NCBI GenBank assembly: GCA_038203825.1
Contig: JBBRDO010000006.1
Location: forward strand, 3,760 to 67,759
Length of the DNA stretch: 64,000 nucleotides
From: Chloroflexia bacterium
Lineage (GTDB): Bacteria; Chloroflexota; Chloroflexia; QHBQ01; JADMIH01
Reading direction: 5' to 3'
Of this stretch, positions 601-61,525 are shown one piece after another; position 1 is the stretch's first letter, and each line of letters starts with the position of its first letter. The notes beneath the pieces are model-generated. The model worked only from the letters and a program-made list of their open reading frames with translations. It did no database searches and was not told the origin of the DNA. The position numbers and the translations under genes were made by a program.

Positions 601-649
601 ATTTGCCTCCGTTCTTTAATGAGCAGGGTTCCGGCCCCTGAGTCCCGCC

Positions 650-1648: not shown

Positions 1649-1712
1649 CTGTTTCCCCCTTCGGACCCTGGCCCTAGATTACCAATCCGGTGATCGCAAT
1701 CTAAACCCGCGA

Positions 1713-3179: not shown

Positions 3180-3284
3180 TTTGTTTCCTCATCTACGTGA
3201 TAGGTGATAAGTGACCTGATACATGACGAGGCTTATACCCCGGTTATCACGTAGCGCGTATCACCTATCACGACGGGTCACTGC

Positions 3285-4601: not shown

Positions 4602-4697
4602 TCTGCTCTCCTACGTGGTTAGTGATACGTGCTATGTGTCCGGGGACCGGAAGTGACAAGTCGGCACCGTCACCCGACCTGCTGATCGCTGCGTGGC

Positions 4698-5630
4698 TTA
4701 CGGCTGAGCGACGGGCGCCTGCAGTCCATATTCCTTTATCAGTGTTTGAATCGAGACACCCGTCGTCTTTTCTACGTCTTTATCGCCCCGGACATCGTTG
4801 CCTTTGTCGTCCTTCACCACCTGGCCCGCGTCATCCTTTTGTATGGCCGAAGAGCGAAGTGTGAGGTCCACTGAGCCATTCTGCCGGGCGTATGCGATGA
4901 CTTCAGCCTGCTGGTCAGTTACTCCAAGTACGAGCACCGTCTGATAGGGCGCCGCATCCAAATACATTGCTGCTGTGCTGGGCGGGGGCAGGGTTGCTGT
5001 CGTAGCGTTCGCGTTTGTGGCCTGGCCATTAGCGCCTGCCGGTACTTCCTGCGCCAACTTCATTACCCGGAGCACATGTATGTTCTGGAGCAAGGTCTTC
5101 GTAGAAGTGTAGTAATCTTCCACGGTGGTAGTTTTCCCCTCAGAGTCAACCTTTGGCCGGTCATACTTCAGCACTGCCGTCCAGATCAAGTCCACTCGAT
5201 CATTCTCCATAACGGCGTCACCGAATGTGCTCTTGGCAGGTACTGCCAGCACGAAACCGCGTTCTCCTTTGGCCAGAATGTCCGCAAAGCCGCTCTCCGT
5301 GAGCTGGTCCGTGCGCACCAGTTGGCCTTTGGTGAGGGGCAGCAGCGTCATCTTCCCGTATAAAGTGGAAGGTGAAGTGGTGGTATTGGTCGGTACTGTG
5401 CTTTGTTCTACACTGACCGTAGCTACATTGCCGGCGTCTAGCAGCGTATAAGCGGGCAAGTCTCGGTTGACGACCGCTACATCCACCATCACCGGGGCAG
5501 TAGTGGGTACTGTTGCTGCGTTACCGGTTGTCGTCAGTTTGCCCGACATTACCACGTATACGACGACGAACGCCATCGCCGCAAGCAATCCGCCGAGCAA
5601 GAGCAGAAATTTTCCACCGCGTGTTTTCAT
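4698..5630 (-). CDS. cpaB: Flp pilus assembly protein CpaB/RcpC (SAF domain)
   Basis: N-terminal TM anchor MKTRGGKFLLLLGGLLAAMAFVVVYVV followed by a CpaB-like region. First gene of the Tad block. GGAGG RBS before the ATG at 5630. Confidence 0.8.
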   Translation of the reverse strand: MKTRGGKFLLLLGGLLAAMAFVVVYVVMSGKLTTTGNAATVPTTAPVMVDVAVVNRDLPAYTLLDAGNVATVSVEQSTVPTNTTTSPSTLYGKMTLLPLTKGQLVRTDQLTESGFADILAKGERGFVLAVPAKSTFGDAVMENDRVDLIWTAVLKYDRPKVDSEGKTTTVEDYYTSTKTLLQNIHVLRVMKLAQEVPAGANGQATNANATTATLPPPSTAAMYLDAAPYQTVLVLGVTDQQAEVIAYARQNGSVDLTLRSSAIQKDDAGQVVKDDKGNDVRGDKDVEKTTGVSIQTLIKEYGLQAPVAQP

Positions 5631-28189: not shown

Positions 28190-28305
28190 TAATATGCTGG
28201 TAAGGTGCCGGCATGTTAGCGCAGAAGACAATAATCGGAGCGACAATGGTGTCAAATGGCAGGTGGTTCTACGCTGCCGGCTTCGGTACTATGGAGGGCC
28301 GTCAA

Positions 28306-29187
28306 ATGGAAAAATCAACATCTACTACAAAAAAAGGACTCGCCCAGATGCTGAAGGGTGGGGTTATCATGGACGTGGTTACTCCCGAGCACGCGCGGAT
28401 CGCTGAAGACGCCGGCGCGTCGGCTGTCATGGCGCTCGAGCGCGTGCCTGCCGACATTCGTGTGCAGGGGGGAGTGGCCCGCATGAGCGACCCCGAAATG
28501 ATCTTGAGCATCATGGAGGCGGTGACTATTCCCGTGATGGCCAAGTGCCGCATCGGACATTTCGTTGAGGCCCGCATCCTCGAAGCCATCGGCGTAGATT
28601 ATATTGACGAAAGCGAAGTGCTGACCCCGGCCGATGAGCGCTTCCATATTAACAAGCAGGACTTCAAAGTGCCATTCGTGTGCGGTTGCCGCGACCTCGG
28701 CGAGGCCCTACGAAGAATAGGCGAAGGCGCCGACATGATTCGCACCAAGGGCGAGGCGGGCACAGGCAATGTGGTTGAGGCGGTCCGCCACATGAGGACT
28801 GTGTGGGACGGCATTCGCAAGCTCCAGAACATGCCCCGCGAAGAGCTCATGGCCGAAGCAAAAGAACTGGGCGCGCCCTACGACCTCGTGGTGTGGGTGG
28901 CAGAGAACGGCAAGCTCCCCGTCGTGAACTTCGCCGCGGGCGGCGTGGCCACTCCTGCCGATGCAGCATTGATGATGGCGCTGGGCGCAGACGGGGTATT
29001 TGTGGGCTCGGGCATATTCAAGTCGGGCGATCCTACCAAGCGTGCCCGTGCTATCGTGCAAGCCGTTACCCATTTCAACGACTACGATATTCTTGCCGAC
29101 GTGAGCAAGAACCTTGGTGAGGCCATGGTCGGAATCAATATCGCAGACCTTCCCAAGGAAGAGCTGCTCTCCGTGCGCGGCTGGTAG
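28306..29187 (+). CDS. pdxS: Pyridoxal 5'-phosphate synthase, lyase subunit PdxS
   Basis: [28 protein letters not shown]...[12 protein letters not shown]...[11 protein letters not shown] is near-canonical PdxS. The start is ATG 28306, preceded by GGAGGG (28293-28298). The ORF track's start at 28213 is probably too long. Confidence 0.95.
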
Positions 29188-34524: not shown

Positions 34525-35448
34525 TTACCAGCGGGGCCACGATTCGGTGGCTTCGGCTCTTAGTTTCGTGTAGCTTTCGTAGCGAGAGGGGTAGATTTCG
34601 CCCATGTCGAGGGCGGCGCGTACGGCGCAACCGGGCTCGGTGAGGTGAGCGCAGTTGTTGAACTGGCATTTGCCCAGGTATGGCTCGAACTCGGGAAAGC
34701 AGTAGGGCAATTCGTCGGGCGGCACCAGCCACAAGCCAACCTCGCGCAGGCCGGCAGTATCTGCAACGCGAGCACCATCGGGGAGCCTGATCAGGAATCC
34801 GCCAACTGTTGTATGCCTGCCTTTTCCATAGGCGTCGCTGAGCCTGCCCACCTTGAGGTCGAGGTTCAGCTCGGGATAGAGGCTGTTCAGGAGGCTCGAT
34901 TTGCCCACACCAGAGGGACCGACAAGGACAGACTCTTTACCGGCCAGGCCTGCTCGTAGCTCGTCGAGGCCCTCGCCCGTTTCGGCGCTCGTGAAGTGGA
35001 GAGGGTAGCCAGCGTCGACGTAGGGCTGCAGCAGGGCGGTGATCGCGTCGCGGGAGGCGAGGTCCATTTTGTTAATGACGATGCGAGCAAGGAGCTCGTT
35101 GGCCTCTACTACTACCAGGAAGCGGTCGAGAGTGGGCAGGGTGAGGGCGGGCAAGGTGGCTGAAAAGACCACTATCACCTGGTCTATATTTGCAATAAGG
35201 ACCTGTTTACGGTGCGATGGGCCGGCAGCACGGCGGGCCAGGACGCTCTTGCGCGGCAGGATTCCTTTGATGGCCCAACCCTCGCCCACCTGTTCGATCT
35301 GGACGAAGTCGCCCACAGCGGGCGGGTCGTCGCGGAAGAGCCTGCCACGGATGGTGCACTCGACCATGCGGTCGCCGACCTGCACAGTTGCCACGTCGGC
35401 GTAGAGGCGCACGAGTTGTGCCTGTTCGTTCTCCAGATCCTGCTCCAA
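34525..35448 (-). CDS. rsgA: Ribosome small-subunit-dependent GTPase A (RsgA/YjeQ)
   Basis: OB-fold N-terminus. G motifs NKMDL and GPSGVGKSSLLN. Zinc knuckle CQFNNCAHLTEPGCAV. I place the start at TTG 35448, preceded by AGGAGG. The ORF track's extra 19 codons are encoded by repeat DNA. Confidence 0.9.
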   Translation of the reverse strand: MEQDLENEQAQLVRLYADVATVQVGDRMVECTIRGRLFRDDPPAVGDFVQIEQVGEGWAIKGILPRKSVLARRAAGPSHRKQVLIANIDQVIVVFSATLPALTLPTLDRFLVVVEANELLARIVINKMDLASRDAITALLQPYVDAGYPLHFTSAETGEGLDELRAGLAGKESVLVGPSGVGKSSLLNSLYPELNLDLKVGRLSDAYGKGRHTTVGGFLIRLPDGARVADTAGLREVGLWLVPPDELPYCFPEFEPYLGKCQFNNCAHLTEPGCAVRAALDMGEIYPSRYESYTKLRAEATESWPRW

Positions 35449-35570
35449 AATGCCTCCTGTGGGACGATGGACGACCGATGACCGAATACGGATCACGAAG
35501 ATCACGAAGGTTAAGAGATCACTAAGATTTAGGAAGGTTTAAGAGTTAAGAGCGCAGACCGGCGATATAT

Positions 35571-36545: not shown

Positions 36546-39443
36546 ATGCTGACCTTGCCTACAGGAACAGTCACGTTCCTTTACACTGACATCGAAGGTA
36601 GCACCAAACGCTGGGAGAAATCGCCGGCGCCGATGCGAGCCGCGGTTGAGCGTCATGATGCCATCTTGCGGCAGGTTATCAAGGAGAGCGGTGGGTCTGT
36701 CTTCAGAACAATGGGAGACGCCTTTTGCGCCTCTTTCGCCACAGCGCCCGAGGCCCTGGCGGCCGCGCTTGCGGCACAGCGCCTGCTCTATGCGGAGCCG
36801 TGGGACGAGCGGGTGGCGCCTATAGCGGTGCGGATGGCCTTGCACACGGGGACCGGGGAAGTGCGCGACGGCGATTATGTGGGCACGCCGCTCAACCGGG
36901 TGGCGCGGCTGCTGAGCACGGGCTACGGCGGGCAGGTGCTCGTATCTCAGCCCACCTACGACCTGGTGCGGGACGTCTTGCCGCCCGACATGCGCATGAT
37001 TGACCTGGGCGAACACCGACTGAAAGATCTTCAGCGTCCCGAGCACATCTACCAAGCGGTGGCGGCGGGCCTGCCTGCCGATTTTCCGGCGCTCAAGGCA
37101 CTCGATATCATGCCGAACAACCTGCCGGTGCAGCGCAGTCCTCTGATTGGGAGGGAGGCGGAAGTGGCAGCGGCGCAGGCCCTGTTGCTGCAGGACGACG
37201 TAAGCCTGCTCACGCTGACGGGGCCGGGCGGAGTTGGAAAGACGCGGCTGGCGTTGCAGATAGCGGCTGATGTGATCGAGCATTTCGAGGAGGGGGTTTT
37301 TTTTGTAGCGCTGCCGGCGGTCAACGAAGCCGACCTGGTGCTTTCTGCGATTGCGGAGGTTCTGGGCATCAGGGAAGCGGGTGGGCAGCCACTCCTCGAT
37401 AATCTCAAGTATTTCCTCAGAGAGAAGCAACTGCTGTTGGTGTTGGACAACTTCGAGCAAGTGCTTGACGCGGGCACGGTGCTGTCGGAGCTGTTGGAGG
37501 CGGCGCCCCGTGTGAAGGTTATGGTGACGAGCCGGGCGGCGCTCAACCTCTATTTCGAGCGACAGTTTGCCGTGCCGCCGCTGGGCCTGCCGGACGACAA
37601 GAAGGCAATCTCGGTCGAGCAGCTCAGTCAATACGAGGCGGTCCGCCTGTTCATAGACAGGGCGCGGTCGGTCAAGCGCGACTTCGCCGTCACTAACGAG
37701 AACGCGCCCGCAGTGGCCGAGATTTGCCACAGGCTGGACGGGCTGCCCCTTGCTATCGAGCTTGCAGCGGCGCGGGTGGCCATCCTGCCGCCACAGGCTA
37801 TGCTGGCCCGATTGCAGAGCAGGCTCAAGCTGCTGACGGGGGGAGCACGCGACCGGCCGGCCCGCCAGCAGACTTTGCGCGGCACGATAGACTGGAGCTA
37901 CCAGCTACTTGACGAGGGAGAGCAGATGTTGTTCCGCAGGCTGGCCGTCTTCCCCGGCAGCTTTTCACTGGACGCCGCAGAGGCCATTTGCAACGCGCCC
38001 GAGGACGTCGAAATGGCTGTGCTGGACGGGGTGATGTCGCTGATATCGAAGAGCCTGCTGCGCCAGATGGAGGAGTTGGCCGGCACATCTCGCTTCACTA
38101 TGCTCGAAACTATACGCGAGTTCGCCGACGAGAAGCTTGCCGAGAGTGGGGAGGTTGAGGCGCTGCGCACCCGGCATGCACAATACTTCGCCGACCTGTC
38201 CGAAAAGGCCGATGTGGACTCGTTCAATGTCCTGCGGCACGAGTGGGTGGCATTGCTCACAGCAGATCACGCTAACGCGCGGGCGGCTCTCGAATGGGCC
38301 CATAAGAGGGGCGACCTGGTGACGGTGATCCGGCTGGCGAGCTCTATGATGTGGTTCTGGAATATTGGTGGTTTCATGAGCGAAGGCCGTGAGTGGGCCG
38401 AAACCTCCCTCGACCGGATAGACGCGCAGGATAGTACGCACCCGGCGATTGACGAGCAATTGCACGCGAGGGCGCTGTTCGTGGCAGGGTACCTGGCTTT
38501 CATCCAGGGGGATTACAGGGACGCCGGGCTGCGGCTGGAAGATGCGATCAGGCGCCAGCGCGGGCTGGAGGACAAGCGGCTGTTGGCTTATATGCTTCAC
38601 CCCGCCGGGATGACGGCCCACTTCCAGAATAAGTTTGCCCTGGCCCGCGCCCACCTTCAGGAGAGCATTGGGTTGCTGCGCTCGTTTGGCTCGTTGTCGC
38701 AGCTGGGTTTGGCGCTGTTTTCTCTTGGAGATACTGCTCTTGCAGAGCGGAAGGACGACGAGGCCAGAGAGCATTACGAGGAGAGCCTGGAGGTTGTCGG
38801 TAAGCTGAACGACGAGTGGGCGATGGCCCTGCCTCTTACCAGCCTGGGCCGCCTGGCCTGGCTGCATGGCGATTATGAGGAGGCGTATGACCTGGTTTCG
38901 CAAGGTTTGGCCGTGCGGCGCAAGGTGGGGGACCGGTGGGAGGGCGCTATTTCGCTGGCCAGCCTGAGCGAGGTGGCCCGATGCCAGGGCAGTTTTGCCG
39001 AGGCTGCCTCGCTTGCAGAGGAGGCGCTGGGCACATTCAGGGAACTGGGCGACAGGTCGGGCGTCGCCTGGTCGCTCTATAACATGGCCTATGTGGCCTA
39101 TTACGAGGCACGCTTCAAGCAGGCGTCCCAGCTTTTCAGGGAAGCCCTCGAGTTGCGCCGGGAGCAGGACAACATCGAGGGCATTACGGTTTGCCTGGCC
39201 GGTATGGCCCAGCTGGCCGCGATGCAGGAGGAGTTTGCGCCGGCGGCTCGCCTGTTCGGTGCTGCCGAGGCGCTGTTCGAGCCTGCGGGCGCCCGCCTGT
39301 CGCCGTTTGACCGGGCCGATTTCGACCGCACCAGGGATGCCACGCGCCTGCACCTGGGCGAGGCTGACTTTCAGGGTGCCCTGTCGGAAGGCGCGAGGAT
39401 GAGCGCCGTCGATGCGGCAGCGTTTGCGCTGGGCAAGCAGTAG
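36546..39443 (+). CDS. Class III adenylate/guanylate cyclase domain, NB-ARC/AAA (STAND) NTPase and TPR array
   Basis: Cyclase metal and transition-state residues are present ([29 protein letters not shown]). Walker [13 protein letters not shown] and Walker [12 protein letters not shown]. About 450 aa of TPR-like repeats (W..AL..LG.LA...GDY.EA). Confidence 0.9.
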
Positions 39444-39551: not shown

Positions 39552-39580
39552 TTGACACTCGTCGTCCGCTCTGCTATACT
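39552..39580 (+). promoter_or_regulatory. Near-consensus promoter TTGACA - 17 bp - TGcTATACT
   Basis: TTGACA at 39552-39557, a 17-nt spacer containing TGc, TATACT at 39575-39580. AGGGGAGGA RBS lies before the ATG at 39670. Confidence 0.7.
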
Positions 39581-39669
39581 CTTTCCTGGCCTCCAGCACT
39601 TTGACCTCCTGCGCCATAGCGAGGCCCCGATGTTTGCGCGCCCGGGATAGTTAGGGGAGGAAGTAACAA

Positions 39670-39885
39670 ATGAAGATTGAGGTACGGCGCGGGCCACGCA
39701 TAGTGGCCCTGCTTATTCTCGTGTCGTCCATGATCGCAGCAGCTACGTACGTCAATCCGTTACCGACGCAGTCGAGTGCCGGTACTAGCTCACCTTACCA
39801 CATGGGAACCAAGCGCGCAGCCGAACAGGTGCCCAAAACCGTTCCCCAGTCACCGGCCGCATCAACGCCAAACTCGGCCAACTAG
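39670..39885 (+). CDS. Signal-peptide-bearing 71-aa fragment, in frame with the downstream giant surface protein and separated from it by a single TAG
   Basis: MKIEVRRGPRIVALLILVSSMIAAATYV... has an n-region plus h-region. It is in the same reading frame as 39922..44973, and only one stop (TAG 39883-39885) lies between them. Confidence 0.55.
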   Translation: MKIEVRRGPRIVALLILVSSMIAAATYVNPLPTQSSAGTSSPYHMGTKRAAEQVPKTVPQSPAASTPNSAN

Positions 39886-39921
39886 GCATTCACGACTTCC
39901 ACTAGCGGCACCTTCACTGAC

Positions 39922-42900
39922 ATGAGCAGCGGCACAACCCAGCTCGTCGCAGCCGACAGGGATGACGCAGGGTCGACCGTGCAGACCCTCCCCTTCGACT
40001 TCTATCTGATGGGGCAGCGGTTCAACCAGTTCTCTGCCACTTCGAACGGGATGCTGGGGCTGGGCAGCACTGCAATTGGGAGCGCGGTTTACAACCTTTA
40101 TTCAGGCTCCACATCGGCCCCAACCATCTCAGCTTTCGGCGGCGACCTGAGCACCGGGGCATCGGGGTCGGTCCGGTACAAGGTCACAGGTGCCGATCCG
40201 GGCCGGGTGCTGACCGTAGAATACAACAACATGTCCCTGCTCAAAGTGTCATCACCAGGCTCAAACGATGGCACGTACCAGGTTCGGCTTTACGAGACAA
40301 CAGGCAAGATCGAGTTCGTTTACGGACCCATGACACGCAACGCGGGCACAGGTGCGCTTAACGGCCAGCAAGCAGGCATCGGCTGGGCAACGGCTAACTC
40401 AACCAACAGCCTCGTCAGTATCACAACGACCACCAATCTGGCGAGCACGACGGCACCCTTCGGCCAGGCTCTCTATGCGGTGGGGGCGGTCGCCAACCTG
40501 GACAGCCCAACAGAGGGCGCTCGCCGCACCTACTCGATGCTTCCGCCCGTGCCCACCGCCCCCACCAACCTGGGCTTCTCGGCAGTCACCCCCACGAGCA
40601 TGGACCTCAACTGGAACGACTCGCCGGACGAGGTGAGGTACGCCGTCTATCGCTCCACAGACGGCATCAACTACAGCTACTTTGGCGCTGCCGCTTCAGA
40701 CGCGACAACCTTCAGCGCCACAGGGCTAACGCCAAACACGCCCTACTGGTGGATGGTATACGCGGTCTCGGAAGGCGCACCCAGCGCAACAGCCGCCGCC
40801 GGCAGCCAATCGACCTCCCCCGCAACCAACGTCCTGTCAACCGCAGCCGGGGGAGCGTGGAGCGCCCCGGCCACCTGGGTGGGTGGCGTCGTGCCCGCCT
40901 CGAACGACATCGTCACCATCGCCGACGGGTCAACAGTCACCATTGATGCCGCGTCAACCCCCAGCGCCTACAGCGTCACCGTCGGCCAGGGCACATCGGG
41001 TATACTGGTGTTCAACACGACCACCGCTCGCACCCTCGCCATAGTACAATCGCTAACCGTCGCGCCGGGCGGCAACTTCCGGACGGGCGCCACGGGTAGC
41101 GTAAGCACACACATCGTAAGCGTAGGACAGGATGTGACCAACAACGGCACAATCGACTTCAGCACGGGCAGCGGTGCGGGGGCGGGCTTCGTCTTCACGG
41201 GCGGCTCCGACGCCACCTTCACCAACAACGGCTCGCTCGACCTGCGCAACTCCGTGGGCAGCAACGGCGGCCTGCACGTCAACAAGGGCACGGGGCAGGG
41301 CGCAGTGCTCAACTTCGTGCAGAACAGCGCGAGCAACGTCACCACGCAGGGGGCGGTCTCGCTCGGCTTCCTCACCATAGCCAATGGCACGTTCAAGCTC
41401 TCGGGCAGCGCGGCCTTCAGCAACCCCGTGTTCAACCTGGCTGCTTACACAATAGGTTCCACAGCCGCATTCTGGCTGAACAACGCCAGTGCCATAGTCC
41501 TGGGCCAGAATGGATCGCCCACCAACGCGGGCCTGCTCAGAATAAGCGCGGGCATCTTCAACGTGGGCCTGGTCACAGGCAACTCCATGGGCGCATCGGC
41601 AGGGGCGCAATTCCTGATAGAGGGCGGGGTCAGCAACTACGCCAGCAGGTTCCTCACCTCCGCCGCCGTCACCTACACCCAGAGCGGCGGCACAGTCAAC
41701 GTCGCCACCATCGACAACGGCTCAAGCTCCTCAGCCTCCTTCGGCCTGACGGGCGCGTCCAGCGTCATGAACATGTCGGGCGGCACCATCGTGCTCGTGC
41801 AGCGCAGCACCGGTGGCACGCCCCTCGACTACAACGTGCTGGGCACGCTCAACTACACAGGCGGGACGTTGCAGGTGGGCAACGGGGCCACAAGCACCAA
41901 CTTCGACTTCAGATTGAGAGGCCAGATGCCTGCTCTGCTGGTAGATAACACGGTCAACGCCAAATCTGTGCTGCTGACCGCGCAGGCCGGCATCCTGGGC
42001 AGCCTCACCCTCAACACAGGCACATTGCTCAACCTGGGCGGCTTCCTCTGCTCGATTGCCGGGGCCACCATCACCAACAACGGCACCATCACCAACACCA
42101 CCGCGGGCGGGCGCTTCGACCTCACGGGCAGCGCCCCGCAAGCCTACACAGGCAGCGGCATCATGTCGGCGGGCGGCCTCAACATAGAGCTGGACAACCC
42201 CTCCGGCCTTACCATCGATCCGGCCTCCCCCGCCATCAATGTCCTGCGGCTCAACCTCTGGAGAGGCACGATCACAAATGCCTACAAGCTAACGCTGGGC
42301 ACAGCCGGCGCGAGCTCTGCCACCATACAGGTCGGCGTCTCGGGGGCCACGGGTCCAGGAGGCTCCCTCGACAGCGCGCCCACCTTCAACGCAGGCACGG
42401 GAGGCGTCATCCTCATCTATGCGCAGGAGACAGCACCACGCACCACCGGCTTTGAAGTGCCCCCTGCCCGCATCGTGCAGAGCGTTACCCTCGCCAATAC
42501 CAACGGCGTGATCCTGGCGGGCGGCAGCCTCACCATCAACGGCACCCTCACCTTCACCGCCGGCAACATCACGACCGCGGCCAACACTGTGATCATGGGC
42601 AACTCGGCAACGGTCACGCGCACGAGCGGGCACGTCGTGGGCAACCTCAGAAAGACCTTCACAGGAGTCTCAACGAAGACCTTCGAGGTCGGCACCCCCA
42701 ACGGCTACTCGCCCGTCGCGGTCAACGTCACTGCCGGCACCTACCCTGCCACCTTCACGGCAAAAGCCACACAGGGCTCGATGCCCGCTCTCTTCGACCC
42801 CTCTAGGTCGTTGGCCCGCTACTGGACCCTCGCGGCAACGGGCATCACAGCCGACCTCACCTTCAACTACCTCGACCCCACGGACATCCCGGCAACCGCA

Positions 42901-44973
42901 AACGAGGCCAACTTCGTCATCTTCAAGTACGACGGCACCCTCGTCATGCCGGGCGGCACCGTTAATACAATTGCCAATCAAGCCACCATTACCGGCGTGA
43001 GTACCTTCTCCGACTGGTCCCTGGCCGAGCCAGCCGCCGCCAACACCCCCACCCCGATCCCAACCAACACCCCTACCTCCACACCGACCGTTACAACTGC
43101 ACCAAGCGATACAGTCACCACCGCTGCGACGCAGACCCTCACGACTACGCCAACTGAAACTCCGACGAGCTCGCCGACCTACACCGAAACCCCCACCGAT
43201 CTTCCCGCGCTAACCCCTACCTTAACGCCAACCGACACGAGCACGGCTACCGACACAGCAACGCTTATTCCAACCGGGACCCCTACAAGCACAAGCACGA
43301 ACACGGCAACCGAGACGCCGACAAAAACACCAACGTCTACGCCCACCGATGTGCCCAGCACAAACACCCCCAGCGAAACTCCAACCAGCAGCTCCACGGA
43401 AACAGACACAGCGACCGCCACTGCCACTAACACCAATACCCCGACCGAGACACCAACGAATTCACCGACCGACACTAATACCCCAACAGACACTAACACA
43501 GCTACAAACACGCCAACTGCGTCGCCAACATCTACCTACACCCCAACTCTTACGTCAACGCCAACGCCTACAAACACCAACACACCCACCAACACCCCAA
43601 GCTTAACCCCAACCCCAACAGAATCCAACACATCGACAAACACGCCGACTGACACGAACACGCCCTCTAACACTGCTACCACGACTCCGACGAACACGTC
43701 GACGTACACTGGTACACCAACCTACACTTCGACCAGCATCCCCAGCAACACCCGAACGAATACAGCGACGAGCACGAGTACCCCCACAAGCACGGCGACT
43801 GACACTTCAACAAATACGCCCAGCATAACCCCCACAAATACCGACACGGCTACGGCCAGTCCAACCATCACGTCGACTTACACCAGTACGGCGAGCCAGA
43901 CTCCTACTAACACACCAACCAACACACCAACGAACACAGACACAAGCACACCATCAAGCACGCCAACCACCATCCCGAGCAACACAGCCACAGATACCCC
44001 CACAAATAGTCCGACGAGCATCGGCACCAACACCCCTACTAACACTACGACGAACACAGTCACAAGTACGGCTACCAATACAAGTACAAATACCTTGACG
44101 CCTACGAGCACTGTGCCAACGTCCACCGACACGGCTACCGCGACCCGAACCTCTACTTCAACCGACACTCCCCCAGCTACCGCTACTCAGATGTTCACCA
44201 GTAGCCCAACGAGCACGCCTGCTGACACAACCATACCCACGGACACGCCGACCGACATACCGACGAGCACGATCACCGGCACGCCTTCAGCCACCCCGAC
44301 CGCATGCGAATTGCCGTTCGTCGACGTTGCTCCCTCCGACTGGTTCTACGAGTATGTGCAGTATCTCTACTGCCACGGGGTCATCAACGGCTATGTCACG
44401 GAGCCGCCTTGCGATGGGGGCACACCTTGCTTCAAGCCGGTGAACCCCACGACCAGGGGGCAGCTGTCCAAGATCGTGGTCCTCGCGTTCGCCTTCCCGA
44501 TAGACGTTTCCGCGGGGCCAAGCTTCGAAGATGTAGCCGAGGGAAGTACCTTCTATCCCTACATCGAGACAGCCAGGAGCCTCGGCCTGGTCAACGGCTA
44601 TGATTGCGGCAGGCTGGGCGAGCCCTGCGACCCGTACAATAGGCCATACTATCACCCCGAAAGAAACGTGACAAGAGGCCAGATCACCAAGATCGTAGTT
44701 TCCTCGGCGATCATTGCCGACCCGGTCAGTTGGACGTTGCTTGAGCCGGCAGAGAGCGCCTTCCAGGATGTCCCAGCCGGCAGCACGTTCTTCCGATTCG
44801 TGGAGACGGCCTACGCGCACGGCATCATCAATGGCTATCCATGCGGGCCGGCTCCTGCGGGCGTGTGCGTGCCACCCGACAACAAGCCTTACTTCTTGCC
44901 GAATGCGGATGTGACGCGAGCACAGATCAGCAAGATCGTATATCTCGCGAGGACAAGTTCGGCGCGCAGGTAG
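39922..44973 (+). CDS. Giant cell-surface protein: N-terminal adhesin-like domain, FN3, long Gly/Thr-rich beta-helix-like region, about 420-aa Thr/Pro linker, three C-terminal SLH domains
   Basis: FN3: [35 protein letters not shown] x3: [78 protein letters not shown]. There is no signal peptide at the annotated ATG. Confidence 0.9.
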
Positions 44974-45125: not shown

Positions 45126-45395
45126 ATGAACCAACGTGCCGAGGTGGACGTGCGCGTGCGCTTGCTGCTTGCCCGGGTGCTTGAACAGGGCCCGGAGCAT
45201 GTGGGCAGCCTGCCGGAAAGCACACCGCTTTTTGGGGGCGGGTTGTCGCTCGATTCGCTGACAGGGCTTGAGCTGCTCACCGGCATAGAGCAGGAGTTCG
45301 GCGTGGACATCGCCGCCGACGACCTCAACCTTGATAGTCTGCAAACCATCGGGACGTTGGTCCACTACCTGAGCGGACGCCTGCGTAATACGTGA
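45126..45395 (+). CDS. Acyl/peptidyl carrier protein
   Basis: Phosphopantetheine attachment context GGGLSLDSLTGLELLTGIEQEFG. I prefer ATG 45126 (GAGGA upstream). The alternative start, 45099, lies in repeat-like DNA. Confidence 0.8.
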   Translation: MNQRAEVDVRVRLLLARVLEQGPEHVGSLPESTPLFGGGLSLDSLTGLELLTGIEQEFGVDIAADDLNLDSLQTIGTLVHYLSGRLRNT

Positions 45396-45447: not shown

Positions 45448-45981
45448 CTACAACTCGTCCGGCCAGAGCGACAGGTCACATACGTCACGATAGCCGCAGG
45501 CGCGGCAGCGTGCGGGCACGTCGTGGTTGCGCGCGACCTGCCACTCCTCCTGGGTGGCCGTTGTGCGTATTTGCTCCATAGCCTCCAGAAGATGTGCCCG
45601 CGTCTTGCTGTTGTAGTCCACCTTGAATGTGTTGGTGCTGTATTTGAGCAAGCCGTAGGGAGGCTTTTTGCCCTGGGTTTCTTCCAGCAACAGACAATAA
45701 GCCAGTAGCTGTAGAAGGTGCGATTCGCGCGGCTCACTGTCCGTGCGCGTGGGCTTGACCTCTACGGGAACTGGGCCGCGGGATGTGCTGACCACGTAGT
45801 CCGGAGTGCCGGTCAGCCCGTAGCGCGCCGAAAAGAGGGGCTTGCCTCTCTCCTCGATACCCGTGTCCGACTGCATGATTTTCCCTTTCGGCAATCCACT
45901 CTCCTGCCGAAGGCGCGCCGAACGAGCCAGCATAACGACCGCTAGCGCGACAAGTGCTATCGCAATAAAGACCCAGAACAT
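45448..45981 (-). CDS. Cas4/DUF83-like PD-(D/E)XK nuclease with an N-terminal TM helix (solo, no CRISPR context)
   Basis: Motifs GTPDYVV ... VEVKP (D...ExK), LLQLLAY (QxxxY) and C-terminal CRACGYRDVC (CX2CX5C). TM helix MFWVFIAIALVALAVVMLA. I prefer ATG 45981 (GGGAG RBS); the alternative is GTG 46008. Confidence 0.7.
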   Translation of the reverse strand: MFWVFIAIALVALAVVMLARSARLRQESGLPKGKIMQSDTGIEERGKPLFSARYGLTGTPDYVVSTSRGPVPVEVKPTRTDSEPRESHLLQLLAYCLLLEETQGKKPPYGLLKYSTNTFKVDYNSKTRAHLLEAMEQIRTTATQEEWQVARNHDVPARCRACGYRDVCDLSLWPDEL

Positions 45982-46079
45982 GTCTACTCCCAGGAAGCGG
46001 CCGGACACGGTCGCTTATGAGTGGCAAGCGTCACGCCAGTCGTATTTCTAGCCCCTAACCCCTCGCCACCGGTCACTGG

Positions 46080-48201: not shown

Positions 48202-49473
48202 CTAAGCACGCGGTTCGCTACTACCCCCAATGTGCCTGCGCCTTACCAGCCGGAAGGTGTGCGAGTCGCAACATGGGCAACCCGCCTCTTTCAGGGCTTC
48301 GATGGTCGCAAACCGGCCGCCCGCTTCGCCGCCGACTGTCACTTCAGTCCCACACACAGTACACGCATATGTCCGGAGCATTGGGCGCAACTGCCCCGTG
48401 TATATCGGCCCTGCGTACTCCCCCTTAACTAGTGCAGCAGATTGGGTGCTCGCGCTGAGGACGTAGAGGTCGCTTACTCCGGCAAGCACACCAGCGCCCA
48501 CATACTCGTTGAAGTTGGGCACTAGCCTCTCGATTACCAGTCCCATCTCCGCTATGGCACGCTGCACCGCCACCTGCTCATCGGGCGGACGGTGGCCGAA
48601 ATGCAAGTATATGCGCCCACCGCCAGGCTTGACGGCTTCGACCGCACGAGAGAGGAACAGTTCAAGGCCGGGCAACGTGTAGGGCGGGTCGGTCGATACT
48701 GTGTCGAACGCGCCCAGCAGTTTGGCTGGCAAGGGCATGCGCACATCGTGCTGCACCGTTTCCAGGGCAACGCCTTCCTCAGAAGCTGCCTCCGTCAGGT
48801 GAAGCAGGATACGCTCGTCGGTGTCGAGGGCCACTATGCGACGTGCCAGCTTGCCGGACGGCGACAACGCTTTGCCCGCGAGAGCCAGCGCCAGTGAAAC
48901 CGAGTCGTCGTCGCCCAGTATCAGCACGTCTTTCCCCGCAAGAGCCCCATCCTCGTACATGAGGGCTGCGCGGCGCAAGTTGGTTTCTGGCGTGCAATGG
49001 CTTTGGTCGAGCGCAACGTCAACGCGGGGGTTGCTGCTGAAATGTCGCTGGAGCGCTTCCAGAACAACACGCCAAACGCCGCCAACCGGCGCGACTCCCA
49101 ACCCGCCGCACGTGGGACAAAGCACACTGCCCGAGCCCGATTCACCGGGCGACTGCAAGCCGGACGCGCTATCCGGCAAAGTGGCCCAGCCCCATTCGTC
49201 GCTCATTGCCTGTTCGGCAGAGTTGGTCAGGCGAAGGTACGGTCCCGGATCAAGCACGCCTGCTTTCTCAAGCTCGCGGCGCACTGCTGTAACCACGGGC
49301 AAGGGCAAGCGGACGAGTCGCGCAAGCGCACGCGCCGTCAGGGGCTCTGCACTCGTCAGGTGTTGCGCTCGATAGACAGTACGCAAAACCTCCTCCACAC
49401 CCGCAGCGCCCTCACGCAACTGGGAGCGCTGGGCCACGGAGTTCAGCAGGCTGTCTTTTTCTATGGGCATCAT
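48202..49473 (-). CDS. DUF43/BpsA-like aminopropyltransferase (branched-chain polyamine synthase family) with extra Cys-rich zinc-ribbon segments
   Basis: KDVLILGDDDSVSLALALAG and FDTVSTDPPYTLPG match the DUF43/BpsA signature as I recall it. CPTCGG and CTVCG...CPCC clusters are present. It is adjacent to speH. Confidence 0.7.
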   Translation of the reverse strand: MMPIEKDSLLNSVAQRSQLREGAAGVEEVLRTVYRAQHLTSAEPLTARALARLVRLPLPVVTAVRRELEKAGVLDPGPYLRLTNSAEQAMSDEWGWATLPDSASGLQSPGESGSGSVLCPTCGGLGVAPVGGVWRVVLEALQRHFSSNPRVDVALDQSHCTPETNLRRAALMYEDGALAGKDVLILGDDDSVSLALALAGKALSPSGKLARRIVALDTDERILLHLTEAASEEGVALETVQHDVRMPLPAKLLGAFDTVSTDPPYTLPGLELFLSRAVEAVKPGGGRIYLHFGHRPPDEQVAVQRAIAEMGLVIERLVPNFNEYVGAGVLAGVSDLYVLSASTQSAALVKGEYAGPIYTGQLRPMLRTYACTVCGTEVTVGGEAGGRFATIEALKEAGCPCCDSHTFRLVRRRHIGGSSEPRA

Positions 49474-49594: not shown

Positions 49595-51052
49595 TTACTT
49601 CCCTTGCAGGACGATGGACGACCGGGGCAGGATCGCTACTTTGAACGCGCCATTGGTTATCTGATACTCGTGGCCCTTCCACACGTCTTTGAGAACAGTG
49701 CCATCCTGGAACAGTTCCCCGACAGGTATCAGGACCTCTTCCGGCAATTGGCCTTTATTGAAGGCGACCACCACTTTGTCATCAGCCTGATGACGGGCCA
49801 GGGCATAGACGTTGTCGTCGCCGTAAAGGGTCGTGTACTGGCCCGTGCGGAGGGCAGGGTGCTCACTGCGCAGTTTTATAGCGCGCTTGAAGAAGTCGCG
49901 CAACTCGCTGTCCCAGTGCGTTTCGTCCCACAGGAAAGAAGCCCGGGACAGGGGATCTTTGCCGCCCACTATTCCGACTTCGTCGCCATAATAGACGCAG
50001 GGAGCGCCCGGATATACCATCTGGAAAAGGGTGGAGAGGCAGAGTGCGCTTTTATCACCTCCCGCCAGGGTCAGGTAGCGAGCCGTGTCGTGGCTATCAA
50101 GCAGGTTCAACTGAACGGCTGTTACCTCGGGTGGGTAAAGCTGGAGCAGCGCCTCCACCTCTCTGGCGAATACGCCCGCAGGCAACGTCTTAACGGGCCA
50201 CAGGGACGAGCCTTCCAGCAGGCTCGGATCGTCGATCTTCTCTATGAAGAACTCGATACAGAGCTTGGTGAACAGGTAGTTCATTACCGCGTCGAACTGG
50301 TCGCCCTTAAGCCATCGACGGGCGTCATCCCAGATCTCGCCCACGATGTAGGCTTCGGGGTTCGCGCCTTTCACCCGTCGTCTGAACTCCTGCCAGAACG
50401 CATCGTCGTTGATTTCGGCGGGCACGTCCAGACGCCAGCCATCAATGCCGAACTCTATCCAGTGAACCGCCACATCCAGCAGGAACTCGCGAACATCGGG
50501 GGTCGAAATGTTGAACTTCGGGAGCGCGTGCAGGTTCCACCACGCGTCGTAGTTGGGCTCCCTCTGTTCATCATAGGCGTTGAGCGGCCAGCCCTTGATC
50601 CGAAACCAATCGACATAAGGCGAAAAAGTACCGTTCTCAAGGATATCGTTGAACTGGAAGAACCCGCGGCTGGCATGGTTGAACACTCCGTCGAGGATAA
50701 CCCGAATACCCCGCTTATGGGCTTCGTCCAGGAGGGTGCGCAATGCAGCGTTGCCGCCCAGAAGCGGGTCAACGCTGTAGTAGTCGTAAGTGTGGTAGCG
50801 GTGGTTGGCTGTTGACTGGAATACGGGGTTGAAATATATCGCGTTGATGCCCAGGTCAACCAGGTAGTCCAGGTGCTCAACCACGCCGATCAGGTCGCCG
50901 CCTTTGAACCCGTAGGAGGTGGGTGGGCTGTCCCATGTTTCGAGATTGCCTGGCTTGTGCAGGGTTTCGCTCTTGGCGAACCTGTCGGGGAATATCTGAT
51001 AGAAAACTGCGTTTCGTACCCACTCAGGGGTTTGAATCTCTTGTGTCGTCAT
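49595..51052 (-). CDS. GH13 alpha-amylase-family glycoside hydrolase (neopullulanase/alpha-glucosidase-like)
   Basis: FYQIFPDRF, DGVFNH, GWRLDVPAEI, GEIW and LLDSHD are the four conserved GH13 regions. Confidence 0.92.
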   Translation of the reverse strand: MTTQEIQTPEWVRNAVFYQIFPDRFAKSETLHKPGNLETWDSPPTSYGFKGGDLIGVVEHLDYLVDLGINAIYFNPVFQSTANHRYHTYDYYSVDPLLGGNAALRTLLDEAHKRGIRVILDGVFNHASRGFFQFNDILENGTFSPYVDWFRIKGWPLNAYDEQREPNYDAWWNLHALPKFNISTPDVREFLLDVAVHWIEFGIDGWRLDVPAEINDDAFWQEFRRRVKGANPEAYIVGEIWDDARRWLKGDQFDAVMNYLFTKLCIEFFIEKIDDPSLLEGSSLWPVKTLPAGVFAREVEALLQLYPPEVTAVQLNLLDSHDTARYLTLAGGDKSALCLSTLFQMVYPGAPCVYYGDEVGIVGGKDPLSRASFLWDETHWDSELRDFFKRAIKLRSEHPALRTGQYTTLYGDDNVYALARHQADDKVVVAFNKGQLPEEVLIPVGELFQDGTVLKDVWKGHEYQITNGAFKVAILPRSSIVLQGK

Positions 51053-59949: not shown

Positions 59950-60073
59950 GCAGGCGTGATACGGGATTGAGCGCACGAGGCCCGTTTGGTATGACCCTTT
60001 AGGAGCCGTTCGTCTCTTGCGCAGGGAAGACCTGTCACGTACACTTACAGAGATAGACTGTAAGGGGGAAAGC

Positions 60074-61525
60074 ATGGCAGACAAGGTTAGATTACGTATT
60101 GCTCCGTCGCCTACGGGTGACCCACACGTTGGTACGGCTTATATGGCGCTCTTCAACAGGGCATTCGCCCATCACCGGGGCGGAAAGTTCGTGCTGCGTA
60201 TAGAAGATACCGACCAGACGCGATACAATCCAAGCTCGGTGCAGGAGATACTTGATAGCCTCAGGTGGCTGGGTCTGCTCCCGGATGAAGGGCCGGGCCT
60301 CGGCGGCGATTATGGGCCGTATGTGCAGACGGAGCGCCGCGACCTCTACCTTAAGAGCGCACACGAGCTTGTGGAGCGCGGCCATGCATACCGCTGCTTT
60401 TGTACAAGGGAACGACTCGAAGCATTAAGGCAGGAGCAGGCCGCCCGGAGAGAGCCCCCCCGTTACGACCGGCACTGCCGCGATCTTTCCGGCGAAGAAA
60501 TCGCGAGTAATCTTGCGGAAAGCAAGCCCTATACAATCCGGCTCAAGGTACCGGATGAGGGGCACACGACCTTCCGCGATCTGATACGGGGCGACATTAC
60601 CTTTGAGAATAAGGAGCTGCAGGACCCAATTCTGCTCAAGTCAGACGGCTTGCCTGTGTATCATCTGGCGGTGGTGGTAGATGACCACTACATGGAGATC
60701 AGCCACGTTGTGCGCGCCGAAGAGTGGATCAGCAGCACGCCGCTGCACGTCATGCTTTACAGGTTCTTTGGCTGGGACGTGCCCTTATTCGCCCACATGC
60801 CTCTGCTCAGGAATTCGGATCGCTCGAAGATTTCCAAGCGCAAGAACAATACTTCGCTGAAGTGGTATCGCGAGCAGGGGTACTTGCCCGAAGCGATGAT
60901 TAACTTTCTGGCGCTGATGGGGTGGTCGATGCCCGACGGCAGCGAGATCTTCGGCTACGCGGACGTCGAGCGCGAGTTCACGTTCGAGCGGGTCACGACG
61001 AGCGGGCCGGTGTTTGATCTGGTGAAGCTAACCAGCATCAACGGCAAGTACATCCGCGCGCTTTCGGACGACGAACTGTTCGAGAGGCTGTTGCCATACC
61101 TGCCTGAAGAGATGGATAAGGAGCGTGCGCGCAAGGTGGCGCCTGTACTGAAGGACAGGTTGACGCGCCTGGGCGAATTCGTGGAGCTAACGGGTTTCTT
61201 CTTTGGCCCAGTGCCCCAGTATCCTGCCGATCTTCTGGTCCCGAAGAAGGGTACGCCGAGCGACGCTGCCAGGGCGCTGGAGCAGGTGAAAGGGCTTCTT
61301 GAGAGCCTAAAGCAGCCCTGGACGCACGAGGACTGGGAAAGCGGAATGCGCGTAATTGCCGACAACCTGGGGCTGAAGGCGGGCGACCTGTTCATGATCC
61401 TGCGGGTGGCAGTAACAGGCAGCAAAGTCTCCCCGCCTCTTTACGAGAGCATGGAGATACTGGGGCGAGACGAAGTATTGTCCCGCGTCGACCATGCACT
61501 GGAACTGGCTCGAAAGGCAAGCTGA
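60074..61525 (+). CDS. gltX: Glutamate--tRNA ligase
   Basis: RIAPSPTGDPHVGTAY (HIGH), KISKRK (KMSKS) and a class I GluRS body. The start is ATG 60074 after AAGGGGGA. Confidence 0.95.
   Translation: MADKVRLRIAPSPTGDPHVGTAYMALFNRAFAHHRGGKFVLRIEDTDQTRYNPSSVQEILDSLRWLGLLPDEGPGLGGDYGPYVQTERRDLYLKSAHELVERGHAYRCFCTRERLEALRQEQAARREPPRYDRHCRDLSGEEIASNLAESKPYTIRLKVPDEGHTTFRDLIRGDITFENKELQDPILLKSDGLPVYHLAVVVDDHYMEISHVVRAEEWISSTPLHVMLYRFFGWDVPLFAHMPLLRNSDRSKISKRKNNTSLKWYREQGYLPEAMINFLALMGWSMPDGSEIFGYADVEREFTFERVTTSGPVFDLVKLTSINGKYIRALSDDELFERLLPYLPEEMDKERARKVAPVLKDRLTRLGEFVELTGFFFGPVPQYPADLLVPKKGTPSDAARALEQVKGLLESLKQPWTHEDWESGMRVIADNLGLKAGDLFMILRVAVTGSKVSPPLYESMEILGRDEVLSRVDHALELARKAS

What the first reader, a model, noticed from the sequence alone, without database searches (positions are those of the whole stretch)
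39670..39924. Giant SLH surface-protein gene split from its own signal peptide by a single in-frame TAG
- **Upstream ORF.** A near-consensus promoter (TTGACA-17-TGcTATACT, 39552-39580) and a strong RBS drive a 71-aa ORF that is essentially a signal peptide plus linker.
- **The interruption.** It ends at TAG 39883-39885. The next 12 codons are open ([12 protein letters not shown]) and run in the same frame into the annotated ATG (39922) of the 1683-aa SLH protein, which has no signal peptide of its own.
- **Domain evidence.** The bridging peptide looks like the start of the N-terminal domain ([20 protein letters not shown]..DRDD....LPFDFYLMG). This suggests the ancestral gene was one 1768-codon ORF.
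- **Possibilities.** A recent nonsense mutation or phase-off state of a major surface protein, a sequencing error, programmed amber read-through or suppression, or re-initiation.
Basis: partly seen in the sequence, partly recalled or inferred. Interest (0 to 1): 0.7.

Follow-up and report, generated by a model that had tools for sequence, protein, structure and literature searches.

The report
Surface-protein gene broken by premature stop
A single C-to-G change turned an invariant tyrosine codon into a stop codon just after the export signal of a giant cell-surface protein gene in an uncultured Chloroflexia bacterium, which is an ordinary, recent gene-inactivating mutation and not a recoding mechanism.

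Summary
A 71-codon ORF (39670-39885: signal peptide plus linker) ends at TAG 39883-39885. It is in frame with a 1695-codon open stretch whose first ATG (39922) starts the called 1683-aa SLH protein.

The TAG sits on an invariant tyrosine. A close ortholog from a JGI metagenome (L084, 92% nucleotide identity, no gaps) has the same promoter hexamers and signal peptide and reads TAC there, inside one continuous ORF. In 80 more distant genomes, 78 loci have Tyr (TAC 42, TAT 36), one is an alignment offset and one is cut by its contig end. The "start" ATG 39922 is the conserved internal Met of the D-M-S motif and has no ribosome-binding site.

TAG is a normal terminator here: it ends 14 of 43 long ORFs, including this gene. 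I found no tRNA, no stimulatory RNA structure and no nearby repeat. A separate assembly of run SRR19962010 also carries the TAG.

Best reading: a recent TAC→TAG nonsense mutation, giving a young pseudogene or loss-of-function allele. A consensus sequencing error or functional amber suppression remains possible but unlikely. Interest is low.

The parts
39552..39580 (+). Sigma-70-type promoter-like site: TTGACA, 17-nt spacer, TG-extended TATACT.
   Evidence: It matches 11 of 12 positions. Both hexamers are identical in the ortholog L084.
39654..39663 (+). Shine-Dalgarno sequence GGGGAGGAAG that serves the true start codon ATG 39670.
   Evidence: Read directly from the sequence. L084 keeps AAGGAAG at the same place.
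39670..39744 (+). Sec-type signal peptide, codons 1-25 (MKIEVRRGPRIVALLILVSSMIAAA). The cleavage site after AAA is inferred, not run through a predictor.
   Evidence: The hydropathy profile supports it. It is 85% identical to L084 with dN/dS 0.21. Homologs have equivalent N-terminal hydrophobic segments.
39745..39882 (+). Low-complexity P/S/T/A-rich linker, codons 26-71, between the signal peptide and the first folded domain.
   Evidence: Its length and sequence vary among homologs. dN/dS against L084 is 0.69.
39883..39885 (+). Premature amber stop TAG that replaces the invariant Tyr codon. It is inferred to be a C-to-G transversion at 39885 (TAC to TAG).
   Evidence: L084 has TAC here within one continuous ORF. 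Of 79 scorable genome loci, 78 have Tyr (TAC 42, TAT 36), and the remaining one is an indel offset. All 13 protein homologs that cover the site have Tyr.
39886..39921 (+). Twelve open codons ([12 protein letters not shown]) that form the start of the conserved N-terminal domain, including its first beta-strand. They are now stranded between the stop and the called start.
   Evidence: They are identical in L084 and conserved as xF[TA]TxTxGxxTD in homologs. The structure model places strand E3-5 here.
39922..39924 (+). ATG called as the start of the 1683-aa protein. It is really the conserved internal Met of the D-M-S motif, and no Shine-Dalgarno sequence precedes it.
   Evidence: The motif DMS or NMT is at this position in nearly all loci. 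The upstream sequence ACTTCCACTAGCGGCACCTTCACTGAC has no purine-rich SD.
39883..40545 (+). Conserved N-terminal all-beta domain of about 220 residues. It has no Pfam or NCBIfam model and no PDB fold match.
   Evidence: There were 383 relatives in the genome collection. The AlphaFold2 model has pTM 0.82 and mean pLDDT 74.8. No Foldseek PDB hit reached E<=0.001. No family hits were found. dN/dS against L084 is 0.09.
40546..43035 (+). FN3-like domain, G8 domain and a long T/G/S/N-rich repeat region that is presumed to be a beta-helix. Together with the N-terminal domain it forms a block of about 1050 aa conserved across phyla.
   Evidence: Pfam G8 scores E 7.5e-6. PF00041 is precomputed on the homologs. 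tblastn gives 41-50% identity over about 1080 aa in dozens of loci. The beta-helix assignment is an inference from composition.
43027..44304 (+). Thr/Pro/Ser-rich low-complexity linker of about 425 aa, 62-76% T+P+S.
   Evidence: A composition scan shows it. Only short tandem arrays are present.
44308..44973 (+). C-terminal cell-wall anchor with three SLH motifs (FVDV..., FEDV..., FQDV...) and the normal stop TAG at 44971-44973.
   Evidence: Pfam SLH scores E 6.8e-19 with 2 scoring stretches. The third motif was read from the translation.

Best explanation
The locus is one gene for a giant secreted surface protein. Its layout is signal peptide, linker, conserved N-terminal beta domain, FN3, G8 and repeat region, Thr/Pro-rich stalk, and three SLH cell-wall-binding motifs. 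The host is an uncultured Chloroflexia bacterium.

In this genome a single third-position transversion (TAC to TAG, C to G at 39885) changed the invariant first tyrosine of the mature domain (codon 72) into an amber stop.

**Shown:**
- The stop lies exactly on a Tyr codon that is intact in a close ortholog and in all informative distant homologs.
- TAG is an ordinary terminator in this genome.
- The downstream ATG is an internal Met without a ribosome-binding site.

**Inferred:**
- Ribosomes that start at the strong SD and ATG 39670 terminate after 71 residues, releasing only a signal peptide plus linker.
- The remaining 1695 codons are largely untranslated.
- Any product made by re-initiation at ATG 39922, or any other internal start, would lack both the export signal and the first beta-strand. 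It could not reach the cell wall.
- Only rare near-cognate read-through of UAG could give full-length exported protein.

The allele is therefore a recent loss-of-function or strong knock-down mutation, meaning a young pseudogene. It is not a programmed feature.
For: **The stop replaces a tyrosine codon**
- The close ortholog L084 aligns without gaps at 92% nucleotide identity, from the promoter through codon 225. It reads TAC at the site inside one continuous ORF.
- Tyr occupies this position in 78 of 79 scorable GTDB-genome loci, and the 79th is an indel offset.
- All 13 protein homologs that cover the site have Tyr.

**TAG is an ordinary stop here**
- TAG ends 14 of 43 long ORFs in the window, including this gene and its upstream neighbour.
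- TAG-separated same-frame ORF pairs are no more common than TGA or TAA ones.

**The downstream ATG is not a start**
- ATG 39922 matches the conserved internal Met, and no SD precedes it.

**The gene was functional until recently**
- Purifying selection acted on both halves over the lineage's history: dN/dS is 0.21 for the signal peptide and 0.09 for the domain, with dS about 0.5 in the domain.
- There is no second lesion in 1695 codons. This limits neutral divergence since the event to under about 2.8% (95% bound from stop-gain alone).

**The base call is reproducible**
- The Logan assembly of SRR19962010 matches the window over 9192 bases, including the TAG.

**Nothing suggests a programmed mechanism**
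- No tRNA gene and no Rfam element are in the window.
- The RNA after the stop has no unusual structure (z -0.15).
- No tandem repeat lies near the site.
Against: - **Read support:** this could not be inspected. The Logan assembly probably uses the same reads as the deposited contig, so it excludes an assembler artefact but not a systematic base-calling error or a minority or majority strain polymorphism.
- **Suppressor tRNA:** only 64 kb of the genome was available. A suppressor tRNA elsewhere, for example tRNA-Tyr with a CUA anticodon that would restore the wild-type protein, cannot be excluded.
- **Intact downstream ORF:** the fully intact 1695-codon ORF is also what one would expect if the gene were still expressed and under selection.
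- **No expression data:** neither expression nor export was measured.
Confidence: 0.8

Rival explanations
1. Sequencing or consensus error: the organism really has TAC, the gene is intact, and the G at 39885 is a base-calling, polishing or strain-mixture artefact of the metagenome assembly.
For: - The window comes from an uncultured Chloroflexia population. The GltX best named hits are MAG sequences, and the exact contig occurs in a metagenome-run assembly.
- The rest of the gene is flawless.
- The ortholog has TAC.
Against: - Two different assemblies, the deposited contig and the Logan assembly, agree over 9192 bases with no mismatch, including this base.
- Single-base substitution errors in a short-read consensus are rare. 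This point rests on general knowledge and was not tested here.
- No homopolymer or repeat is at the site.
Confidence: 0.08
2. Functional amber suppression or read-through: the TAG is decoded at a useful rate, so full-length exported protein is still made, perhaps at a reduced level. The decoder could be a suppressor tRNA such as a Tyr-inserting CUA tRNA, or near-cognate tRNA-Tyr or tRNA-Gln.
For: - The stop is one step from Tyr, the residue a supF-type suppressor would insert. The supF comparison is established knowledge, not a test made here.
- The downstream 1695 codons carry no further lesion.
- The promoter and SD are intact.
Against: - TAG terminates about a third of the long ORFs in the window, so an efficient suppressor would be costly.
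- The stop is absent from the close ortholog, so it is not a conserved programmed site.
- There is no stimulatory RNA structure.
- No tRNA is in the window, and TAG-split genes are not enriched.
Confidence: 0.05
3. Two-cistron arrangement with re-initiation: after terminating at TAG, ribosomes restart at ATG 39922, 36 nt downstream. This would yield a functional 1683-aa protein exported by some other route, with the 71-aa peptide as a separate product.
For: - The ATG lies close to the stop, and both ORFs are called as genes in public annotation.
Against: - The ATG is a conserved internal Met with no SD.
- The product would lack the signal peptide and the first conserved strand of its N-terminal domain.
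- Orthologs are single ORFs.
- SLH proteins act outside the cell, so they need export. This is established knowledge.
Confidence: 0.02
4. Recoded TAG: pyrrolysine insertion or a lineage-specific reassignment of TAG to a sense codon.
For: Only the presence of an in-frame TAG in an otherwise intact gene.
Against: - TAG is the terminator of 14 of 43 long ORFs.
- Homologs have Tyr, not Lys or Pyl, at the site.
- The protein is unrelated to the methylamine methyltransferases that use Pyl. This is established knowledge.
- No tRNA is in the window.
Confidence: 0.01

Closest known systems
Naturally occurring premature stop codons in bacterial surface-protein genes, for example inlA PMSC alleles of Listeria monocytogenes (PMC5131979, PMC12427964)
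   Same: A single point nonsense mutation in the gene for a large wall-anchored surface protein disables its surface display. It occurs as an allele in natural populations.
   Different: - inlA stop codons truncate the C-terminal anchor, so a shortened protein is secreted. Here the stop falls directly after the signal peptide and linker, so essentially no mature protein is made.
- The organism is an uncultured Chloroflexia bacterium and the anchor is SLH, not LPXTG.
- The allele's frequency in the population is unknown.
SLH-domain cell-surface and S-layer-associated proteins (Pfam PF00395)
   Same: It has three C-terminal SLH motifs (plus the translation), an N-terminal Sec-type signal in the reconstructed ORF and a large extracellular region.
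   Different: - The extracellular block of about 1050 aa belongs to an uncharacterised family that other phyla join to different C-terminal anchors, for example T9SS sorting domains in Bacteroidota hits.
- In this genome the gene is interrupted.
Amber suppression by tRNA-Tyr(CUA), as with supF in E. coli (own knowledge)
   Same: A TAG derived from a Tyr codon is exactly the kind of lesion such a suppressor would repair to wild type.
   Different: No suppressor tRNA was seen, although only the window could be searched. TAG is heavily used as a terminator.
Pyrrolysine-encoding in-frame TAG in methylamine methyltransferase genes (own knowledge)
   Same: An in-frame TAG sits within an otherwise intact ORF.
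   Different: - The TAG is not conserved in orthologs, which have Tyr.
- The protein family is unrelated.
- TAG is a common terminator here.

Membership tests
Gene inactivated by a nonsense mutation (young pseudogene or premature-stop allele) | The in-frame stop interrupts an ORF that is continuous in orthologs. | tested here: met
   L084 is one continuous ORF from ATG through codon 234, where the contig ends. Thirteen protein homologs and 78 genome loci read through the site.
Gene inactivated by a nonsense mutation (young pseudogene or premature-stop allele) | The stop is one mutational step from the orthologous sense codon. | tested here: met
   The window has TAG and L084 has TAC. Distant homologs have TAC (42) or TAT (36).
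Gene inactivated by a nonsense mutation (young pseudogene or premature-stop allele) | The codon acts as a terminator in the same genome. | tested here: met
   TAG ends 14 of 43 long ORFs.
Gene inactivated by a nonsense mutation (young pseudogene or premature-stop allele) | The stop is real in the DNA, not an assembly or sequencing artefact. | tested here: inconclusive
   A second assembly (Logan, SRR19962010) is identical over 9192 bases. However, the reads themselves could not be inspected, and both assemblies may share the same reads.
Gene inactivated by a nonsense mutation (young pseudogene or premature-stop allele) | Loss of the full-length protein. | not testable with these tools
   This needs proteomics or immunodetection.
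SLH-anchored secreted surface protein | SLH domains, typically three. | tested here: met
   Pfam PF00395 scores E 6.8e-19 with 2 scoring stretches. Three FxDV...NGY motifs are visible in the translation.
SLH-anchored secreted surface protein | An N-terminal export signal on the same polypeptide. | tested here: not met
   The signal peptide is present but is separated from the SLH-bearing ORF by TAG 39883-39885. The feature is met only in the reconstructed ancestral ORF and in the ortholog L084.
Programmed stop-codon read-through | The stop codon is conserved in orthologs. | tested here: not met
   The close ortholog has TAC, and all distant homologs have Tyr.
Programmed stop-codon read-through | A stimulatory downstream RNA structure or context. 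| tested here: not met
   Folding of 39860-39990 gives a z-score of -0.15 against shuffles.
Pyrrolysine or amber recoding | TAG is rare or absent as a terminator, with in-frame TAGs in several genes. | tested here: not met
   TAG is the stop of 14 of 43 long ORFs. TAG-split ORF pairs are not enriched.
Pyrrolysine or amber recoding | pylT and pylSBCD genes, or a CUA-anticodon tRNA, in the genome. | not testable with these tools
   Only the 64-kb window is available, and it holds no tRNA.
Phase-variable surface-protein switch | A simple-sequence repeat or invertible element at the on/off site. | tested here: not met
   No tandem repeat lies near 39883. The change is a single transversion in non-repetitive sequence.

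The most novel reading that the evidence does not exclude
The TAG is tolerated because this Chloroflexia lineage decodes UAG at an appreciable rate, either through a Tyr-inserting CUA suppressor tRNA or through unusually leaky termination. The giant surface protein would then still be made and exported at a reduced level. That would be a natural case of amber suppression keeping a 1768-codon gene alive.
Probability: 0.04. Interest if true: 0.6.

Novelty: new member of a known kind. Interest (0 to 1): 0.15.

Why it matters
- **Annotation:** the locus should be recorded as one disrupted gene, with the true start at 39670. It is not a 71-aa hypothetical protein followed by a signal-less 1683-aa SLH protein.
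- **Biology:** this population, or the dominant strain in the sample, has probably just lost a giant surface protein. Such losses are a common outcome of selection on exposed structures, for example by phage or other predation, but nothing here tests the cause.
- **Mechanism:** no new mechanism is implied.
- **By-product:** the extracellular block of about 1050 aa belongs to a widespread family found in several phyla. Its N-terminal domain has no Pfam or NCBIfam model and no PDB fold match.

Tried and rejected
**Searches that led nowhere**
- The exact-sequence look-up did not give an NCBI record name or organism. Only the 71-aa ORF was found, as NCBI plus Logan with no name.
- A full-text search for SRR19962010 found no paper.
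- The genome-contig scan did not recover the source genome or a close ortholog. The best match was 54% identical.
- The closest protein-database relative is P0017 on L002, at 82%. It could not be used because its contig starts after the Tyr site and its gene is split over frames 1/3/1/2.
- Rfam and tRNA scans of the window found nothing.
- Pfam and NCBIfam gave no family for the N-terminal domain or the 71-aa ORF.
- Foldseek against the PDB gave no match with E<=0.001 for the N-domain model.

**Ideas considered and rejected**
- **Frameshifting or ribosome hopping:** rejected because the residues on both sides of the TAG align to homologs in the same frame with no gap.
- **Phase variation:** rejected because there is no repeat at the site.
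- **Code reassignment:** rejected on stop-codon usage.
Full report
**1. The observation**

- A promoter-like site (TTGACA, 17 nt, TG-extended TATACT) lies at 39552-39580 and matches 11 of 12 consensus positions.
- A purine-rich Shine-Dalgarno sequence (GGGGAGGAAG, 39654-39663) precedes ATG 39670.
- The ORF from 39670 runs for 71 codons to TAG 39883-39885.
- In the same frame, 12 open codons ([12 protein letters not shown]) lead to ATG 39922. A 1683-codon ORF then ends at TAG 44971-44973, for 1768 codons in all.
- The 71-aa product has a basic n-region, a hydrophobic core at residues 11-25 and an AAA motif, followed by a P/S/T/A-rich linker. This is a Sec-type signal as judged by eye and hydropathy; no dedicated predictor was available.
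- The called 1683-aa protein begins [15 protein letters not shown] and has no hydrophobic N-terminus.
- Pfam finds SLH (E 6.8e-19) at the C-terminus and a G8 domain. Three SLH motifs are visible in the translation.

**2. What homologs show**

A protein search with the fused N-terminus returned 32 hits.
- The homologs whose N-terminus is present are single proteins that begin with a signal or TM segment and a variable linker. They then carry a conserved motif, N-Y-x-F-[TA]-T-x-T-x-x-[FL]-[TE]-[DN]-M-[ST]-G-T-T-Q-L.
- The window reads [23 protein letters not shown], so the TAG occupies the Tyr column.
- All 13 aligned homologs that cover that column have Tyr.

A scan of one genome per species found 383 relatives, and I kept the best 80 loci.
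- At the codon aligned to the TAG, 78 loci have Tyr (TAC 42, TAT 36).
- One locus (L063) is offset by an indel and shows its own N-Y motif eight residues upstream.
- One locus is cut by the contig end.

The Met encoded by ATG 39922 is the conserved Met of the D-M-S motif in these same loci. It is therefore an internal residue and not a start codon. No Shine-Dalgarno sequence precedes it.

**3. The close ortholog**

A scan of JGI metagenome contigs recovered L084 (Ga0207674_10182784, 2048 bp).
- It aligns to the window without gaps at 92% nucleotide identity from the promoter to the contig end. The -35 and -10 hexamers are identical.
- It encodes MKIELRRRPRIVALLILVWSMIAVAT...[28 protein letters not shown]... 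as one continuous ORF.
- The codon at the site is TAC, against TAG in the window. The lesion is therefore inferred to be a C-to-G transversion at 39885, changing Tyr72 to amber.

Codon-wise comparison with L084 gives these values:

| Region | dN/dS |
|---|---|
| Signal peptide | 0.21 |
| Linker | 0.69 |
| N-terminal domain | 0.09 (dS about 0.5) |

Both halves of the split gene were therefore under purifying selection as parts of one protein for most of the time since the two lineages diverged.

**4. Is the stop programmed or decoded?**

- TAG ends 14 of the 43 long non-overlapping ORFs in the window (TGA 15, TAA 14). These include the big gene itself and its upstream neighbour.
- Same-frame long-ORF pairs separated by one TAG are no more common than those separated by TGA or TAA (8, 11 and 5). 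The others are adjacent unrelated genes or opposite-strand shadows.
- No tRNA gene and no Rfam family are in the window.
- The RNA around and after the stop folds no better than shuffled controls (z -0.15).
- No tandem repeat is near the site, so a slipped-strand phase switch is not available.
- Frameshifting or hopping is unnecessary, because the frame and the alignment are continuous across the TAG.
- The stop is not conserved in the closest ortholog.

None of the defining features of programmed read-through, pyrrolysine recoding or phase variation that I could test is met.

**5. Is it real?**

The Logan assembly of run SRR19962010 contains a 17.5-kb contig. The 9192 bases fetched from it (L001) match the window exactly, including the TAG and both called ORFs.
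- This rules out an artefact of one assembler.
- It does not rule out a systematic read error or a strain mixture, because both assemblies may rest on the same reads.
- I could not inspect the reads.

**6. Age**

Only 2.1% of possible single-base changes in the 1695-codon stretch would create a stop. The absence of any second stop limits neutral divergence since the event to below about 2.8%, a 95% bound that ignores indels, which would tighten it. This compares with a dS of about 0.5 to L084. Either the mutation is very recent or the ORF is still under selection.

**7. Organism and context**

- The window's glutamyl-tRNA synthetase (60017-61525) is 86% identical to a protein labelled "MAG TPA: Chloroflexia bacterium". 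Other named hits are Chloroflexota.
- The neighbours are ordinary chromosomal genes:

| Gene | Window coordinates |
|---|---|
| PdxS | 28213-29187 |
| RsgA | 34525-35505 |
| Adenylate-cyclase/NB-ARC/TPR STAND protein | 36546-39443 |
| Acyl-carrier-like protein | 45126-45395 |
| Cas4-like PD-(D/E)XK nuclease | 45448-46008 |
| Branched-chain polyamine synthase homolog | 48202-49473 |
| Alpha-amylase | 49595-51052 |

**8. Mechanism, as far as it can be stated**

*Shown:* a TAC-to-TAG change sits at an invariant Tyr between the export signal and the mature protein, in a genome that uses TAG as a terminator.

*Inferred:*
- Translation from the strong SD ends after 71 residues.
- The downstream 5 kb is mostly untranslated.
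- Re-initiated products would be cytoplasmic and would lack the first strand of the N-terminal domain. The AlphaFold2 model places strand E3-5 in the bridging peptide.
- Only rare near-cognate read-through could give functional protein.

I rate this at about 0.8. Rivals are consensus error (0.08), functional suppression or read-through (0.05), functional re-initiation (0.02) and recoding (0.01).

**9. Comparison with known cases**

- The closest known phenomenon is natural premature-stop alleles of surface-protein genes, such as inlA in Listeria monocytogenes (PMC5131979, PMC12427964).
- The difference is position. Here the stop removes everything after the signal peptide, not only a C-terminal anchor.
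- The protein is an SLH-anchored surface protein by domain content, but in this genome it fails the "signal on the same polypeptide" criterion.

**10. Verdict**

The finding is real and was correctly read, but it is ordinary. It is a young nonsense-mutation pseudogene, or a loss-of-function allele, in a metagenome-derived Chloroflexia genome. The practical consequence is an annotation correction. Interest is 0.15.

Noticed in passing
window 39883-43035, plus loci L003-L082: The first 1050 aa or so of the mature protein (N-terminal beta domain, FN3, G8 and repeat region) form one block. It is conserved at 41-50% identity in dozens of genomes from Acidobacteriota, Verrucomicrobiota, Bacteroidota, Gammaproteobacteria and Chloroflexia. 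The N-terminal domain of about 220 aa has no Pfam or NCBIfam model and no PDB fold match with E<=0.001. C-terminal anchors appear to differ by phylum, with SLH here and T9SS sorting domains in some Bacteroidota hits.
   Followed up: partly
L002 (ENA ERZ25039573 contig_31181) 1-4900: The closest database relative of the big protein is 72-77% identical by tblastn. It is split over frames 1/3/1/2 and called as four separate genes. This looks like indel errors in a long-read assembly, or independent decay of the ortholog. It keeps the Cas4-like and PP-binding neighbours, but in a different order and orientation.
   Followed up: partly
window 43027-44304: A stalk of about 425 aa is 62-76% Thr, Pro and Ser (TPTxTPT-type), yet it has almost no exact tandem repeats at the DNA level. 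It is presumably an extended, possibly glycosylated spacer between the conserved block and the SLH anchor.
   Followed up: no
window 36546-39443: The upstream neighbour is a 965-aa STAND protein with an N-terminal adenylate/guanylate cyclase domain, an NB-ARC/AAA core and C-terminal TPR repeats. tblastn did not find it upstream of the ortholog in L084, although the promoter region there is conserved.
   Followed up: no
window 48202-49473: A branched-chain polyamine synthase (BpsA_C) homolog. An AdoMet-decarboxylase-type ORF lies just upstream, according to the Logan gene calls. To my knowledge this pairing is typical of thermophiles, which hints at the habitat of the organism.
   Followed up: no
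window 60017-61525: The listed TTG start of the glutamyl-tRNA synthetase ORF (502 aa) is probably too far upstream. Homologs are about 480 aa and cover 95% of the query.
   Followed up: no
window 45448-46008: A stand-alone Cas4/PD-(D/E)XK nuclease gene sits next to the surface-protein gene. No CRISPR array or other cas gene was noticed nearby, and the same neighbour occurs in L002.
   Followed up: no
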